Part shown: piece after piece, positions 41,501 to 62,500 of the stretch
Numbering within the stretch: the first letter of the stretch is position 1
How the letters are laid out: each line of letters starts with the position of its first letter
Source: Saccostrea cucullata
Taxonomy: Eukaryota
NCBI RefSeq assembly: GCF_032062105.1
Contig: NW_026929693.1
Span: forward strand, 62,001 to 126,000
DNA: 64,000 bases
Direction of reading: 5' to 3'
Made by a program: the position numbers

Positions 41501-44500
41501 GTGCAACATTGGGTATGATTAAATCAAGTACACAAATTATGCAAATATTAATATTTGTAAAGTGCTTACAAATCATGTATTTCAGCATGCTGCCTGAACT
41601 GGATTCCAAGCACGATAGCTAAAAAACATTAGATCAAGAAAATTTATAATAAAGTTAAAAATGCAAAACATTAGACAATTATTATATTATATGTTATATT
41701 TCCTCAATCGGAGCAATGTTTATGTATGAAAACTCTATACATGCGTAACATTAAATTCATTTCTTTTTACGTTTACATGTAGGTGTTTCGAATATATTTT
41801 AGGACGGTTAAACTCAAACATAGTTATATAGATGCTATCGTCACTAAAACATAGATGATGTCATCAGACGGTTTTACACATACGTAAGTGTCTACCTCTA
41901 AAGGTAAGCTCCTGTTTACCTGCCCATGGATAACTAATAGGAATTATTCCATACTGACGAAGTCATACATGATTACAGTGTTTCAAAATGAATTGAACAT
42001 AAAAAAACTCTTGTAATAGCCTATGAACACCATTTTTAATATCTAACACAAATTCTATATGTGTGAATCTAAAATTTTGATAAAGTATATAATTTCATTT
42101 CAAAAAAGATATAAAAAAAATTTTGGGTAAATAGAAAATTAAAACTTATTTCATAGCTAGTTAAGAAAATTTATAAGCCTTATTGAAACAACTTGAGAGT
42201 TATGTCCAAGACACGATGTAGTTACGATATAGACACATTACTTTTTTTTTTAGTTTACTTTAACATTTCTCCATCTTTGTGTGTTTATTACAATGCTTTC
42301 TGTTTTAAGAAGTCTTCCTTACTGTCAATATCCACGATATTGTGCCGATATCGAATCATGATTGTTCAAAGAATTATGGTTTCCATCTTGAAAACTATCT
42401 TTTATAAACTTTCCCTGTAGAGTCGATATCGACAATATCGCTTCGATATCGAATCATGTTTGCACAGCTCTTTGTAAATACCGTCCCTGTTACTTTGTAT
42501 GTGTATTTATGTTTAATTACTTTATTTTTACGAAGATTGTACCTGCCATCGATATCGACGATATCGTATCGATATCGAATCATGATTGTTAGAATATATT
42601 ACTTCACCAAACTTCACCCTAATACAAAAATCTTTATTTTTAACATATCCCATGACAATAAGTTCTGTTTCTTCATGCAACGCTTGTGCATATTTACTTT
42701 CTGATTAATTAGTTTACCCTACTATCGATATCGTCGATATCGACGATATCGTATCGATATCGAATCATAATTGTTAAACATATTTAACAGCTTTCACCCT
42801 CACCCAACATCTTACTCTAAACCTAATCCAAAACAATAACAACCACTAACCCTTTCCTTATTATAATTTAATTTCATATTCATGCTAATAATGAATGAAT
42901 TTGACATCATTTGTGACCTTGTAAAATTATGTTATACTTCATTGTGAAAATAAATTCTACAAATAGGATCGATATCGATACGATATCGTCACGGTATTGT
43001 CGATATGGACGACATCGACATAGCACAAAGTCTCATTAATGGTACCAAGTATTTCAAATTAATAGTGCTCATCATGATCGATATCGATACGATATCGACA
43101 TAATATTGTAGATATCGTCGATATCGACATCGAATTCCTTCTTTAGATAGCCAAAATACCACCCAATGATATAGGTTATATTCACTAATAAGGTAATGAT
43201 TACGATCAAACATTCACTCCTAATGACGTGTACATGAACAATAATCAAATTTATTCTTTCAATTTACAAATTTAGTCTTCTCTTAAGTATTTCATCTATC
43301 GATGCAAAAATACTCTTTGGAGGTTTACTGTCTATAGATTATAAGAACCAATTTATACCTTAGGTGTATGACAAATGAGACGACTTTAAATTTTCCACGG
43401 TGAAACTTTCCTAATTAAATGAACAATATGTCGTAATTACCTGCATATGGGGCTTACATCTCGAACTTATTCGATATTCAAAAGCATTCTCTGAATACTA
43501 CTAAATTTAAAACCGAGAGAGGTTATTGAAAGAAAAATTGATGTCCTAGGGATTTGAACAATATCGTTCAAAGTCAATATTTCCTAAATTCTGTTCCTTG
43601 TTTATTTGGGGAAAAGGCGAAGAAACGGACAGAGAGCAACCTAAATAATATCTTTAAAAAGCACACCCTGTTGATCGACCACACCCACTGTGATCACGTT
43701 GTATTAATACACTGTAAAATGAACAGAAAATTCATCCACTGTAATTTTTTTTTCAATCAAGATTGTCTTCTTTCATCAGTTTATTAAATCGTTAACTGAT
43801 AATAATCCTTTTAAAAATAAAAAAAAAGCCATAAAATATGAAAGAAAACTTTAATTAAAAAGATAATATCATGTAACAATGTTTTCTAAACAAACTACAT
43901 CTATATCACATTTAAATTACCAAGCCTGAAAATAGTGTCAAACATAGGTTGTTGATTTCTCTGAGGTATCAGACAGGATATTTTTTCAATTATTTATCTA
44001 AAGGACACGGTTTCCGTTCAAGAAACCGCCATGTACATTTCCCTCCCTTTCTTTTGACACATACAGCTTGCTGCTCCTCGCACGGTGAATACCATTCCGC
44101 GTGACACACTCGCTTCCTCTTCCATCGTCCCAGAAGCATTTCATTTACCTTTAAATATTAATTCAACATCATCTAAACATTATTCATTATTGTTTTTAGT
44201 ACTAAATGCAAGGATATACATTTACAGTGCTAAATGGTTTAAACTTGAAACTATTATTTTTCGTGATAAGAAATATGCCTTCAAACATGGGTAAAATGTT
44301 TAGTTAATCCAGAATCATTTTCATGACTATATTTCCGAAGCCATTGTGGCTTCGGAAAGTAATCATGGATTTAAGAAAATATAATTGTAATTATAAAACA
44401 ATCTGCAGATTTTTCGTTTTGTTTTGAAGAGAAAGATTTATGAAAAAAAGAAACTCTTTCAAAATCAAAAGGGAAAATTTGATACTCAAAAGTCGTATTT

Positions 44501-59500: not shown

Positions 59501-62500
59501 GTGCATGATCGTTTTTCCTCCTTTTTGATCAGTATATCAATTTCTTAAGTCTAGCGAATAAAACTACCGCTGATTTATCAGTTTATTGACCATTCGTCGA
59601 ATTTGTCTTAAATTTTATTGTTATTTATCGAGAGACTTGTTTATGATCCACTTTCTTCTTTCGTTTAGCATATGTACATGACATGTAATTTGAATTACTT
59701 CCCTTTTTGTCGCCAGATTACAACAACAGATTTTGGTGGTAAAATAAAATGTATTTTTGTTATAAAATTTGATTAAGAAAAACACAGCATATCAAAATTG
59801 TCGAATTATTGAAAATATTTATTTGAAACAAAAAATTTATAAAGGATTTTGTCTGCAACAAAAACATTCTTTATTTCATGCATTTCAATTCATGAGCTAC
59901 ACATGAAAAAAAAAAAAAAACGGCTTCGTTTTACAATGTCGTAGGAAAACGCATACAGGTAATACACTCAGGTAACATCCTGTGTATATAGGTAGTATGT
60001 ACACTAGACAGCGTCGTTCCCTCGGGGCTTCTCATCCGCTTCGAGTAAGCTCCACTCCACACCAAACTTACCTGAGGAAAACCGAACGGTTACACAGACA
60101 TCTGAAAACTTGAAGCATGGCAACTTGCTGATTAAAATAAGTTAATTTCTGTGTTGTGTGTTCAAATATTTTAAGGGCCCATATTTGTGTTTGTGTTTTA
60201 TTTAAACCGGAGAAATCTGAAATTTGTTTATGTTCATAAACATGATTTTAGTAATTTTCGAAAAGAGCAGAAAATAGAAATACATTCGAATACTAGCTAT
60301 GATATTATTTATATTCTGAATAGAAATACCTGTGATTATTTTATTAACAAGACCCCCCCCCCCCAAAAAAAAAAAAAAAATCGTCGATATTTAGTTCATA
60401 GTCTTACAGTGTAGCGCATAATAATGGAGCAACGGTATTCCTACACTTAGGCGTGTTTTGTTAAAATTTAATCGTAATTATGTATCACTATCTATCATCG
60501 TTTTTCATGCTGTTATTTATAACAGACATGTATACAGAAGTAACGGTACTTTTCTAAATGAAACCAAATGACTAATATAATCTCGCAGATAAATAAACAC
60601 ATAGCTACATGTACATGTAACTGCAACTGCACGGGCTGTGAACACCGGATTACAGTGCATATAAAGAGAAGCGATATCATGGCATTCTTTAAATTTTAAT
60701 CATACCTTTTTAGCAATTTGAAGATCATTTGGGATGGAATTATTGATTTTGAAAATAAACTTTAAGTTAATATATTCGATAAATTATTCGACTTTATTTC
60801 ATCCTATACTGTACATGTATTACTGTTAACAGACGTTTTTGAGAATTAATTAATTTTGAGTGACCTTTGGTAAAAAAAAAAAAAAGAAACATTTTTTTAT
60901 TAAACAATTTGATAAAACTTAAAAATGAATTTTTAAAGAATCCATGTAATGGTATAAATCTGTTAATATTAATGTGGTCGTAATCCTCCCCCCCCCCCCC
61001 CCCCTCATTTCGACACGATTAAAAATCGACAATACTTTACAGGTAAGAACATCTAAGCTGAAGAATAACGGTAGCGGGCCCCGCCGCGGTGTAAACACGG
61101 TCTCAGGTAGCACCGCGATCAAAACCCGCGACGGTGTAACGCGGAAAGGATTAATACATCGCGGAGGGGACGCGGTCTAATACGGGATCCGCGTTGCCTG
61201 TACTGTAGATATAAATACAGGTATATTGATTAAATGATCAGAAAGATAAGAGATAGAGAGAGCGCGTTCTGTAATTTTAAAACTATTTTATTGTTTAGAA
61301 AATTGAACGTTAACCAGGTATGTATGACATTGTATTGCCAAAAGTTAGTCTGGATGTCTTTAAAAAAACAATTTTGAAATTTATAAGCAAACAAACATGC
61401 AAACACGTATAAACAAAACATCTAATAGAAAATTGTATTATACAAGTAATTCAGATATTGTTTCTTTCTCAAAGTATAAAGATGTGATCTATGTTTGCTC
61501 TTTGACGTCAATCCATTTCTGAACAATAAATGGAAGATATTAATACTCTTGCTGATTCCAGTTTTATGCGTTATTATATTTCTTCCTTTTCAGGATTGAC
61601 AGCCAATTAAAATGGATGAAAAAGATAATACTCACCAAATCCCCCATTGCAAAAGGAATTTTGAAAACGGGGCATATAACAGGAGCAACAAAATGCGGAT
61701 TTTGTCAGTCCTAGTAAAAGTAATATTCCCAACATCACTGAATGAACCATTGCAACAAGTATCTTAGGTTTTTATGAACAAATGTAGGAACTGTCAGATT
61801 TGGGCTTGACCTAATAGCGGCTTTGACGTTTCTGGATGCTAGACCAAAGGGCAGAAAGATTTTTATCATGAAAATGTCCAATCAATAGCCCCCAGACTAA
61901 ATGTGAGGCAAAGAAAAGGTTGCATATATACTAGAGAGGGTAGAATTCCTGCAATCAGCTATATTCCGATCGCGGCTGTTTTGACTGACAACGACAAAAT
62001 TTGATCCCATGTTGTCCATAGGGAAAAGATCCTAAGCTAATGCATTTACAAGTAGATGAAGGGACGCCGTTATAAAGATTAAATAGAACAGTTGACCGCA
62101 ATTCGTGGTTAAGGTCTTCGCACTGCCAAGTCGGTTTGGGATGCAATCTATCAAATTAAGAATTATACTGTACATGGTATAAAAACAACAGGAATTTGCT
62201 ATGAATTTGTCATATTGAGTTTCGCTCTAAACTTGTATAAAAATCATGTAAAAAGTAATAAATTTCATTGTTTAATATTGAAGAAAAAATTAATTTCCGC
62301 TTTTGCTTACTTTGATCAAATGATGATGTCATGAATATTATTACATTTGACGATGCATTATAATGTTGATCCGCTAGTTAGCCCCTAAACCATCTAAATC
62401 TCTATTACCGTAACTGCACTTTACATGTATGAGGCCTAGCTTTCATACAAGTTAGTTTATACAATTCTTTCGTCAGATAAGAAAATTTCAAGTAGAAGAT

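What the first reader, a model, noticed from the sequence alone, without database searches (positions are those of the whole stretch)
43990..61750. Entire 7TM receptor gene nested antisense inside intron 2 of an unannotated TIMP gene
Seen: five short minus-strand exons assemble into an intact 214-aa TIMP. Its intron 2 (45769-57122, ~11.3 kb) contains the full plus-strand receptor (47243-53642). Known: TIMP genes are classically the nested partner, inside synapsin introns; here TIMP is the host. Inference: the receptor was inserted into or captured by the intron, with possible transcriptional interference or co-regulation of a matrix-protease inhibitor and a Cys-rich receptor.
Basis: partly seen in the sequence, partly recalled or inferred. 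Interest (0 to 1): 0.72.

Follow-up and report, generated by a model that had tools for sequence, protein, structure and literature searches.

The report
Receptor gene nested inside TIMP intron
A mollusc-type protease-inhibitor (TIMP) gene has one very long intron that contains a complete receptor gene on the opposite strand; this is an ordinary gene-within-a-gene arrangement.

Summary
Five minus-strand exons (61750-61636, 57265-57123, 45768-45663, 45206-45085, 44148-43990) have canonical AG/GT borders and phases 1,0,1,0. They sum to 645 nt, which is 214 codons plus a stop.

Searches were run exon by exon; the joined protein was never built. Exons 1 and 4 give TIMP-specific matches. Exons 2, 3 and 5 give none.

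A second TIMP gene in the window (28417-41018, plus strand) has the same five-exon, same-phase layout. I use it as an internal control.

Intron 2 (45769-57122, 11,354 nt) holds a three-exon plus-strand gene of 886 codons. Its last exon aligns over all seven helices with adhesion-type class B GPCRs (E=9.8e-5).

The novelty claim is overstated. Human and mouse TIMP-2 already hosts a nested gene (DDC8), nested genes are common in animals, and oyster TIMPs are a known tandem expansion.

The paralog's intron 2 is about 516 nt, and its own long intron 3 carries a transposon. This fits independent intron growth, but the insertion is inferred, not shown.

Splicing across the 11 kb intron, co-expression and interference are untested.

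Verdict: real and ordinary, of low interest.

The parts
61636..61750 (-). TIMP-A exon 1: ATG, signal peptide, C-x-C N-terminus and third Cys. 115 nt, ends in phase 1.
   Evidence: Sequence read. A profile of this exon plus the paralog's exon 1 hit 16 PDB sequences at E<=10. Of these, 14 are TIMP-1/-2/-3 chains, all aligned to residues 1-17 of the mature chain (E 0.13-0.81). The single exon gave no Pfam hit and no TIMP in PDB.
57123..57265 (-). TIMP-A exon 2. 143 nt, phase 1 in and phase 0 out, no Cys.
   Evidence: Open frame with an AG acceptor and a GTATGT donor. There is no family-level match: Pfam none and no TIMP in PDB. It is no more similar to the tentative paralog exon 2 than shuffled sequence (799 of 2000 shuffles reach the score). 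Support rests on position, phase and splice signals only.
45769..57122 (-). TIMP-A intron 2, 11,354 nt. This is the host intron.
   Evidence: GT at 57122-57121 and AG at 45770-45769. Length. It contains the receptor gene, three copies of a SINE-like repeat and no recognisable further TIMP exon.
45663..45768 (-). TIMP-A exon 3. 106 nt, phase 0 in and phase 1 out, one Cys.
   Evidence: No Pfam or PDB TIMP match, either alone or as a two-sequence profile. The similarity score to the tentative paralog exon 3 was reached by 18 of 2000 shuffles. That test is biased, because the paralog exon was chosen as the best-scoring candidate.
45085..45206 (-). TIMP-A exon 4. 122 nt, phase 1 in and phase 0 out, three Cys including C-x-C at its end.
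   Evidence: Pfam TIMP PF00965 E=0.0015, 18.8 bits (cut-off 23.1), profile positions 99-135. The paralog's exon 4 (39432-39551) scores E=1.5e-5, 25.3 bits, above the cut-off. The two-sequence profile hit 3 PDB sequences, all TIMP-2, at chain residues 93-128 (E 0.22-0.32). In the A versus B comparison, 0 of 2000 shuffles reach the score.
43990..44148 (-). TIMP-A exon 5. 159 nt including TAA, five Cys (C-terminal domain).
   Evidence: No Pfam or PDB match, alone or as a profile. Similar to the paralog's exon 5: 5 of 2000 shuffles reach the score.
47243..47278 (+). Receptor exon 1 (tentative). ATG plus 12 hydrophobic-rich codons, donor GTATGC, phase 0.
   Evidence: Sequence. It is the only reading whose phase fits the acceptor at 49340. 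An upstream out-of-frame ATG at 47173 would open a short upstream frame. There is no independent support.
49340..50518 (+). Receptor exon 2: Cys-rich ectodomain, 1179 nt, 393 codons.
   Evidence: Part of the 412-codon ORF 49319-50557, which has 20 Cys. Acceptor ...ttattcacAG, donor GTGAGT. The nearest Atlas clusters carry DUF8401 (score 0.92, 212 of 256 features, mostly Mollusca). Recognition was low (1426), so this is a lead only. No Pfam hit better than E=0.19.
52197..53642 (+). Receptor exon 3: juxtamembrane region and the seven-helix domain, 1446 nt including TAG.
   Evidence: Part of the 490-codon ORF. Hydrophobic stretches. PDB phmmer: ADGRG6 chain 21du_R E=9.8e-5, aligned over query 233-473 (helices 1-7). 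Of the 20 hits at E<=10, 12 are adhesion GPCRs. The nearest Atlas cluster is a mollusc 7tm_2 (92%) plus DUF8401 (67%) cluster, score 0.93, 204 of 256 features.
51477..51679 (.). SINE-like repeat copy inside the receptor's second intron.
   Evidence: 81% identical to 56539-56739 and 79% to 29155-29348. Family D1-D4.
55858..56017 (.). SINE-like repeat copy (diverged) in TIMP-A intron 2.
56465..56739 (.). SINE-like repeat copy in TIMP-A intron 2.
   Evidence: 95% identical over 271 nt to 29154-29423, which lies in intron 1 of the second TIMP gene, in the opposite orientation.
28417..41018 (+). TIMP-B, a paralog used as an internal control for the exon layout. It is convergent with TIMP-A.
   Evidence: Exons 28417-28540, 30219-30322 (tentative), 30839-30935 (tentative), 39430-39551 and 40836-41018. 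Phases are 1,0,1,0. Total 630 nt, or 209 codons plus TGA. Introns are 1678, 516, 8494 and 1284 nt (the end of exon 5 was corrected by hand).

Best explanation
This is one five-exon TIMP gene (TIMP-A, minus strand, 61750 to 43990) from a tandemly expanded mollusc TIMP cluster. Its second intron has grown to 11.35 kb and contains, on the opposite strand, a complete three-exon gene for a class-B-like seven-helix receptor with a Cys-rich, DUF8401-like ectodomain.

Shown: the exon borders, phases and open frames of both genes; TIMP-specific matches for exons 1 and 4; an alignment of the receptor with adhesion GPCRs across all seven helices; and the same exon layout in a second TIMP gene 3 kb away.

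Inferred: TIMP pre-mRNA is transcribed through the receptor gene and intron 2 is spliced out as a unit. The two genes have their own promoters and are most likely expressed in different cells or at different times, as is usual for nested pairs. The nesting arose through growth of the intron after the two TIMP genes duplicated, by DNA-level insertion of the receptor gene plus repeats. It is a by-product of a repeat-rich, duplication-prone region rather than a regulatory device.
For: - Splice borders and arithmetic.
- TIMP identity, exon by exon. Exon 4 matches Pfam TIMP at E=0.0015, and the paralog's exon 4 at E=1.5e-5, above the cut-off. The exon-4 profile hit 3 PDB sequences, all TIMP-2. The exon-1 profile hit 16, of which 14 are TIMPs, each aligned from residue 1 of the mature chain. 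Counted exon by exon, there are 12 Cys after the aligned Cys1: 3+0+1+3+5.
- One gene rather than two. The window has no other copy of any TIMP exon on that strand. Both sides of intron 2 are phase 0. The paralog has the same phases and border positions for exons 1, 4 and 5.
- Five exons is the molluscan norm: 132 of 142 genes (PMC10755359 passage).
- Receptor.
- Intron growth. The paralog's intron 2 is about 516 nt, while its intron 3 is 8494 nt and holds a transposon with 681-nt inverted ends and an integrase-core ORF (Pfam rva_4, 9.3e-27). Three SINE-like copies lie in TIMP-A intron 2.
- Nested pairs are common and tend to diverge in expression (PMC5174743 and PMC11694760 abstracts).
Against: - No transcript evidence of any kind.
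- Exons 2, 3 and 5 have no family-level match. In Pfam, 7 of 10 exon translations gave nothing at E<=10. In PDB, 0 of 5 single TIMP-A exons hit a TIMP, and the exon-5 and exon-3 profiles gave 0 TIMP hits.
- The TIMP hits that exist are individually weak (E 0.0015 to 0.8 for TIMP-A or the two-sequence profiles).
- The joined protein was not searched or folded, so the Pfam threshold and the fold remain untested.
- Both TIMPs have two adjacent Cys at the signal-peptide junction, so the true mature N-terminus is uncertain.
- Receptor exon 1 is tentative. The receptor stops 8 residues after the last residue aligned to helix 7 of the adhesion GPCR chains, so it has no cytoplasmic tail. It also gave no Pfam 7tm_2 hit at E<=1.
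- No footprint of an insertion was found around the receptor gene.
- The paralog's exons 2 and 3, on which the '516 nt' comparison rests, are tentative.
Confidence: 0.7

Rival explanations
1. These are two TIMP gene fragments, not one gene. Exons 1-2 (57-61.7 kb) and exons 3-5 (44-45.8 kb) are leftovers of two different tandem duplicates. The receptor sits in the space between them, and no transcript spans it.
For: - TIMPs in oysters expand by tandem duplication (PMC10755359 passages), and partial duplicates are a common by-product.
- Exon 2 has no family-level support.
- An 11 kb intron is far longer than the other seven introns of the two TIMP genes, apart from the paralog's transposon-bearing intron 3.
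Against: - All five exons are intact, with matching phases across the gap.
- The Cys count is complete only when both halves are taken together.
- A sensitive per-region search found no decayed remains of the 'missing' exons 3-5 in 53.6-57.1 kb or of exons 1-2 in 45.8-47.2 kb. All hits there were short, at chance level or contained stops.
Confidence: 0.13
2. It is an assembly artefact. A chimeric join or a misplaced segment put the receptor gene between the TIMP exons.
For: The region is rich in repeats: SINE-like copies at 51.5, 55.9 and 56.5 kb, one of them 95% identical to a copy at 29.2 kb. Such repeats can mislead assemblers.
Against: The window has no N or gap. There is no abrupt composition change across the region. 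The repeats are short (about 200-270 nt) compared with the 6.4 kb receptor gene. This could not be tested further here.
Confidence: 0.06
3. The nesting is functional. Antisense transcription of the receptor gene controls TIMP-A output, or the reverse, through polymerase collision, premature polyadenylation or altered splicing of the long intron. This would couple a matrix-protease inhibitor to a surface receptor.
For: Host and nested genes can influence each other, and host genes show more transcript diversity (PMC11694760 abstract). A regulatory relationship has been proposed for TIMP-2 and its nested gene DDC8 (title of Jaworski et al. 2007, as cited in PMC4452049; the paper itself is not held).
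Against: Nothing in the sequence points to it. No conserved non-coding element, Rfam family or tRNA was found in the window. The general finding for nested pairs is expression divergence that limits interference (PMC5174743 abstract).
Confidence: 0.1

Closest known systems
Human and mouse TIMP-2 with the nested gene DDC8 in intron 1
   Same: A TIMP gene is the host, and a whole protein-coding gene lies inside one of its long 5'-side introns (PMC4452049 passage; PMC3679795 passage).
   Different: Here the host intron is intron 2, not intron 1. The guest is a class-B-like receptor, not DDC8. The host is one of many lineage-specific mollusc TIMP duplicates. The relative orientation of DDC8 was not seen in the passages I read.
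TIMP genes nested inside synapsin introns (TIMP-1/-3/-4 in vertebrates, Timp in Drosophila)
   Same: A TIMP gene takes part in a gene-within-intron arrangement (PMC4452049 and PMC4860685 passages).
   Different: The roles are reversed, with TIMP as the host. No synapsin match appeared among the 28 ORF or exon translations sent to Pfam. Only selected ORFs were tested, and the window may be too short to show a host gene.
Expanded TIMP family of Pteriomorphia bivalves (for example 28 canonical TIMPs in Magallana gigas)
   Same: Five-exon genes in tandem clusters, with divergent N-domains (PMC10755359 passages). [quoted passage not shown]
   Different: I could not tell which family member this is, or whether it is already annotated. 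The supplements that map the M. gigas TIMP loci were closed.
Class B2 (adhesion-type) and Methuselah-like GPCRs; mollusc 7tm_2 + DUF8401 clusters
   Same: The seven-helix domain aligns with ADGRG6, ADGRG2, ADGRL2/3, ADGRD1 and ADGRG4 over helices 1-7. The nearest Atlas clusters are mollusc 7tm_2 + DUF8401 proteins.
   Different: No GPS or GAIN match and no Pfam 7tm_2 match at E<=1. There is essentially no C-terminal tail. A search of the paper library found 0 papers naming DUF8401 or PF28443.

Membership tests
TIMP (Pfam PF00965) | A signal peptide followed directly by an N-terminal Cys in a C-x-C motif, with a further Cys ten positions after the second | tested here: met
   Exon 1 reads ...C-C-S-C, then nine residues, then C. 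The exon-1 profile aligns its position 24, the second of the two adjacent Cys, with residue 1 of mature TIMP-1/-2/-3 chains in 14 of 16 PDB hits. Whether signal peptidase cuts between the two adjacent Cys was not tested.
TIMP (Pfam PF00965) | Twelve Cys in the mature protein (six disulfides, N- and C-domains) | tested here: met
   Counted exon by exon: 3 (after the aligned Cys1) + 0 + 1 + 3 + 5 = 12. Disulfide pairing was not tested.
TIMP (Pfam PF00965) | A match to the family profile at the curated threshold | tested here: inconclusive
   Exon by exon only. Exon 4 scores 18.8 bits against a cut-off of 23.1 (E=0.0015), and the other four exons give no hit. The paralog's exon 4 alone passes at 25.3 bits. 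The spliced protein was not searched, because the joined step was left out.
TIMP (Pfam PF00965) | A five-exon gene structure, as in most mollusc and vertebrate TIMP genes | tested here: met
   Five coding exons. 132 of 142 molluscan TIMP genes have five exons (PMC10755359 passage). My recollection that the intron positions also match those of vertebrates was not checked by any search.
TIMP (Pfam PF00965) | NTR/OB-fold N-domain and inhibition of metalloproteinases | not testable with these tools
   The fold would need the joined protein. Inhibition needs a bench assay.
Host/nested gene pair | The whole coding region of one gene lies inside a single intron of another | tested here: met
   The receptor CDS (47243-53642) lies inside TIMP-A intron 2 (45769-57122), 1474 nt and 3480 nt from the flanking exons. 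Untranslated exons of the receptor could lie outside.
Host/nested gene pair | The host exons flanking the intron are spliced together, and both genes are transcribed | not testable with these tools
Class B (7tm_2) GPCR | A seven-helix domain homologous to secretin/adhesion receptors | tested here: inconclusive
   For: PDB phmmer E=9.8e-5 to ADGRG6 over helices 1-7, 12 of 20 hits are adhesion GPCRs, and the Atlas neighbours are 7tm_2 clusters. Against: no Pfam PF00002 hit at E<=1. The single-sequence AlphaFold model was poor (pLDDT 54.8), and Foldseek gave 0 matches at E<=0.001.
Adhesion GPCR (class B2) | A GAIN domain with a GPS autoproteolysis motif before helix 1 | tested here: not met
   No Pfam GPS or GAIN hit for either large exon at E<=1. 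It is therefore not filed as an adhesion GPCR, only as adhesion-like in its helical domain.
TIMP-in-synapsin nest | The TIMP gene lies inside an intron of a synapsin gene | tested here: inconclusive
   None of the 28 ORF or exon translations sent to Pfam matched synapsin. This covers selected ORFs only.

The most novel reading that the evidence does not exclude
The TIMP-receptor nest may be an old arrangement, conserved in oysters or more widely in pteriomorph bivalves. Antisense transcription of the receptor gene would then tune the output or splicing of this TIMP, for example during wound repair, infection or shell formation. That would be a second, independent case, after TIMP-2/DDC8, of a TIMP host gene regulated by its guest.
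Probability: 0.06. Interest if true: 0.5.

Novelty: new member of a known kind. Interest (0 to 1): 0.2.

Why it matters
It matters little beyond correct annotation. A gene finder that dislikes an 11 kb intron could split this TIMP into two fragments or miss it, and could misassign the receptor.

If the nest proved conserved and the two genes' expression were linked, it would offer a simple invertebrate case for studying host/guest interference at a TIMP locus. Nothing here suggests that.

The receptor belongs to a barely described mollusc family (7tm_2-like helices plus a DUF8401-like ectodomain). That family may deserve attention in its own right.

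Tried and rejected
- **Single TIMP-A exons against PDB sequences.** 0 of 5 hit a TIMP. Exon 2's 'E=1.1e-9' to Crov588 is the sum of 18 weak matches to a repeat protein, with no stretch passing on its own. I treat it as an artefact.
- **Two-sequence profiles.** Exon 5 gave 0 hits. Exon 3 gave 3 hits, all mannosidases.
- **Pfam at E<=10 on ten exon translations.** 7 of 10 gave nothing.
- **Receptor structure.** A single-sequence AlphaFold model of 52797-53639 had mean pLDDT 54.8 and pTM 0.32. The Foldseek PDB search returned 21 matches at E<=10 and 0 at E<=0.001. 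It has no evidential value.
- **Six-frame Pfam scan of the rest of intron 2.** Ten stop-free ORFs from the introns and flanks then gave 0 families.
- **Extra or decayed TIMP exons** inside introns 1 and 2 and inside the receptor's introns. Nothing convincing. The best hit, at 49021-48926 (E=0.001 in a 2 kb database), has an internal stop and a 9-residue gap, and what follows lacks TIMP Cys spacing.
- **Insertion footprints around the receptor gene** (inverted or direct repeats). None found.
- **Rfam and tRNA scans of the window.** 0 matches.
- **Papers.** Brew & Nagase 2010 and Jaworski et al. 2007 are not held. A search for DUF8401 or PF28443 found 0 papers.
- So I had no homolog set, no alignment for folding and no synteny check. 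The prokaryotic genome collection was not scanned, as it is irrelevant here.

Full report
**Scope.** By instruction, every spliced model was handled exon by exon. The joined TIMP and the joined receptor proteins were never assembled, searched or folded. Lengths and phases below are arithmetic on coordinates. The window contains no N and has about 32% G+C throughout. It looks like a mollusc genome, since the nearest Atlas clusters are mostly Mollusca. I did not try to identify the organism.

**The TIMP exons.**
- Exon 1 starts with ATG at 61750 and ends at 61636 before GTGAGT.
- Exon 2 is 57265-57123 (acceptor tttttgtAG, donor GTATGT).
- Exon 3 is 45768-45663 (ttttgtAG, GTGAGA).
- Exon 4 is 45206-45085 (gattcAG, GTAAGT).
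- Exon 5 is 44148-43990 (tttaaAG, ending in TAA).

The lengths 115, 143, 106, 122 and 159 sum to 645 nt, which is 214 codons plus the stop. The phases are 1, 0, 1, 0. Intron 2 is 45769-57122, 11,354 nt. All of this agrees with the finding.

**Is it a TIMP?** Exon by exon the evidence is uneven, and I report all of it.

Pfam on the five exon translations gave one hit. Exon 4 matched TIMP (PF00965) at E=0.0015 and 18.8 bits, below the 23.1-bit cut-off, at profile positions 99-135. Searched singly against PDB sequences, 0 of the 5 exons hit a TIMP.

The window turned out to hold a second TIMP-like gene on the plus strand, which I call TIMP-B. Its exon 4 alone passes the Pfam cut-off (E=1.5e-5, 25.3 bits). 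Its exon 1 gives a weak TIMP hit (E=0.06, profile positions 2-19).

Two-sequence profiles, one TIMP-A exon plus its TIMP-B counterpart, were more telling.
- The exon-4 profile hit 3 PDB sequences at E<=10. All are TIMP-2, aligned to chain residues 93-128 (E 0.22-0.32).
- The exon-1 profile hit 16. Fourteen are TIMPs (ten TIMP-1, three TIMP-2, one TIMP-3), and every one is aligned from residue 1 to 17 of the mature chain (E 0.13-0.81).
- The exon-5 and exon-3 profiles gave no TIMP.

None of these E-values is strong on its own. The case rests on their specificity, their position in the family profile, and the fact that they are collinear on one strand.

The Cys count, taken exon by exon, is 3+0+1+3+5 = 12 after the Cys that aligns with Cys1. 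Twelve is the family's number. Exons 2, 3 and 5 are supported only by position, phase, splice signals, Cys content and similarity to TIMP-B.

**The paralog as an internal control.** TIMP-B has these exons:
- 28417-28540
- 30219-30322 (tentative)
- 30839-30935 (tentative)
- 39430-39551
- 40836-41018 (cut the last base; I corrected the end from the translation)

Its lengths 124, 104, 97, 122 and 183 sum to 630 nt, or 209 codons plus TGA. Its phases are again 1, 0, 1, 0. For exons 1, 4 and 5 the borders fall at the same alignment positions as in TIMP-A.

I compared TIMP-A and TIMP-B exons with 2000 shuffles each. The number of shuffles reaching the observed score was:
- exon 1: 21
- exon 2: 799
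- exon 3: 18
- exon 4: 0
- exon 5: 5

The exon-3 figure is flattering, because TIMP-B exon 3 was picked as the best-scoring candidate. Exon 2 shows no detectable similarity.

A published survey found five exons in 132 of 142 molluscan TIMP genes. It also reports a tandem-duplication-driven expansion to 28 canonical TIMPs in Magallana gigas (PMC10755359, passages read). Two convergent TIMP genes 3 kb apart is therefore what one expects in such a genome.

**One gene or two halves?** Neither a whole-window search nor a more sensitive region-by-region search with both paralogs' exons found any further TIMP exon, intact or decayed, on the minus strand. The regions covered were 45.8-47.2 kb, 53.6-57.1 kb, intron 1 and the receptor's introns.

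The best hit was 49021-48926. It has an internal stop and a long gap, and the sequence after it lacks TIMP Cys spacing.

Both sides of intron 2 are phase 0, and the 12-Cys complement needs both halves. Even if exon 2 were wrong, the receptor would still lie between exon 1 and exon 4, the two exons with family-level support. I put the single-gene model at about 0.7. Only transcript data can settle it.

**The guest gene.** On the plus strand, two of the three longest ORFs in the window (412 and 490 codons) are joined by good splice signals. The first exon of the pair is 49340-50518 (acceptor ttattcacAG, donor GTGAGT). The second is 52197-53642 (acceptor tcatttcAG, ending in TAG). Both junctions are phase 0.

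A short first exon at 47243-47278 (ATG, twelve mostly hydrophobic codons, donor GTATGC, phase 0) fits as the start of a signal peptide, but it is tentative. An out-of-frame ATG lies upstream at 47173. The model comes to 2661 nt, or 886 codons.

The last exon has a run of hydrophobic stretches. It aligns over query residues 233-473 with helices 1-7 of adhesion GPCRs. The best match is ADGRG6 at E=9.8e-5, and 12 of the 20 hits at E<=10 are adhesion GPCRs. The other eight are ephrin-A5 and aldolase at E>0.5.

The nearest Atlas clusters are mollusc proteins carrying 7tm_2 and DUF8401. The helical exon scored 0.93 with 204 of 256 features. The ectodomain exon scored 0.92 with 212 of 256, but its recognition value was low, so that is a lead only.

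Points against a simple filing:
- Pfam gave no 7tm_2, GPS or GAIN hit at E<=1.
- The protein ends eight residues after the last residue aligned to helix 7.
- The single-sequence structure model was too poor to use.

I therefore call it a class-B-like receptor whose helical domain resembles the adhesion type. I do not call it an adhesion GPCR.

**How the arrangement probably arose.** TIMP-A's introns are 4370, 11354, 456 and 936 nt. TIMP-B's are 1678, 516, 8494 and 1284 nt. Each paralog thus has one giant intron, at a different position, and each giant intron carries opposite-strand coding sequence.

In TIMP-B the guest is a transposon at 31556-36762. It has 681-nt inverted ends built from 21-nt tandem repeats, and an ORF that matches an integrase core domain (rva_4, E=9.3e-27).

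TIMP-A intron 2 also holds three copies of a SINE-like repeat of about 200-270 nt. A fourth copy, 95% identical to one of them, lies in TIMP-B intron 1.

This pattern fits independent intron growth after duplication, with the receptor gene arriving at the DNA level. It has introns of its own, so it is not a retrocopy. I found no inverted or direct repeats bracketing the receptor gene. The short TIMP-B intron 2 also rests on tentative exons. The insertion is therefore an inference.

**How it probably works.** TIMP-A transcription would have to run about 17.8 kb from 61.75 kb to beyond 43.99 kb, passing through the receptor gene in antisense. Intron 2 would then be removed whole.

For nested pairs in general, the literature reports that they are the commonest kind of coding overlap. 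They usually arise by insertion of young duplicates into long introns, and they diverge in expression, which limits interference (PMC5174743, abstract read). Over a tenth of mouse and human genes host a nested gene (PMC11694760, abstract and start of the introduction read).

My best guess is two independently regulated genes with little concurrent expression. A regulatory coupling gets about 0.1.

**Comparison with what is known.** Those are real (PMC4452049 and PMC4860685 passages). But the same review passage states that TIMP-2 itself contains a nested gene, DDC8, in its first intron (also PMC3679795). A TIMP acting as host is therefore already known.

I found no synapsin match among the 28 ORFs or exons sent to Pfam. 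That is a weak test.

**What stayed unchecked.**
- Whether the gene is annotated in any public genome.
- Homologs, synteny and any alignment-based fold.
- The supplementary locus maps of PMC10755359, which were also closed.
- All expression questions.

**Verdict.** The arrangement is an ordinary host/nested pair in a duplication- and repeat-rich region, with a precedent in the same gene family. Interest 0.2.

Noticed in passing
window 28417-41018 (+): A second five-exon TIMP-like gene (TIMP-B), convergent with TIMP-A; the two stop codons lie about 3 kb apart. Its exon 4 alone passes the Pfam TIMP cut-off. Counted exon by exon, it has 11 rather than 12 Cys after the aligned Cys1, because its last exon has four Cys where TIMP-A has five.
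   Followed up: partly
window 31556-36762: A transposon-like element of about 5.2 kb inside TIMP-B intron 3. It has 681-nt inverted ends (90% complementary) made of 21-nt tandem repeats, and a 429-codon minus-strand ORF (34198-35487) that matches the integrase core domain rva_4 (E=9.3e-27).
   Followed up: partly
window 61681-61689 (-) and 28483-28494 (+): Both TIMP genes have two adjacent Cys (C-C-x-C) at the junction of signal peptide and mature protein. PDB TIMP chains align from the second Cys. Where signal peptidase cuts decides whether the inhibitory N-terminal Cys is free. This was not tested.
   Followed up: no
window 51477-51679, 55858-56017, 56465-56739, 29154-29423: A SINE-like repeat family of about 200-270 nt, with copies in introns of both TIMP genes and of the receptor gene. 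Two copies are 95% identical. No tRNA or Rfam match was found.
   Followed up: partly
window 53560-53642 (+): The receptor's reading frame stops eight residues after the last residue aligned to helix 7 of adhesion GPCR chains, so there is essentially no cytoplasmic tail. This may be a real short form, a missed downstream exon or a decaying gene.
   Followed up: no
window 47173-47301 (+): An ATG 70 nt upstream of the proposed receptor start opens a 42-codon frame that also looks like a signal peptide. It is out of phase with the downstream exons. It could be an upstream ORF, or a sign that the first exon is wrong.
   Followed up: no
window 48878-49064 and 55266-55468: Two short palindromic, MITE-like structures (arms of 57 and 45 nt) lie inside the receptor's first intron and inside TIMP-A intron 2.
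   Followed up: no
window 11283-12636, 19557-23529 (+); 20135-21985 (+); 1147-1836 (+): Upstream neighbours. There are two B-box zinc-finger ORFs and an NHL-repeat ORF (TRIM-NHL-like), the second gene being interrupted by a reverse-transcriptase fragment. There is also an actin/Hsp70-fold ATPase-like ORF at the window start.
   Followed up: partly
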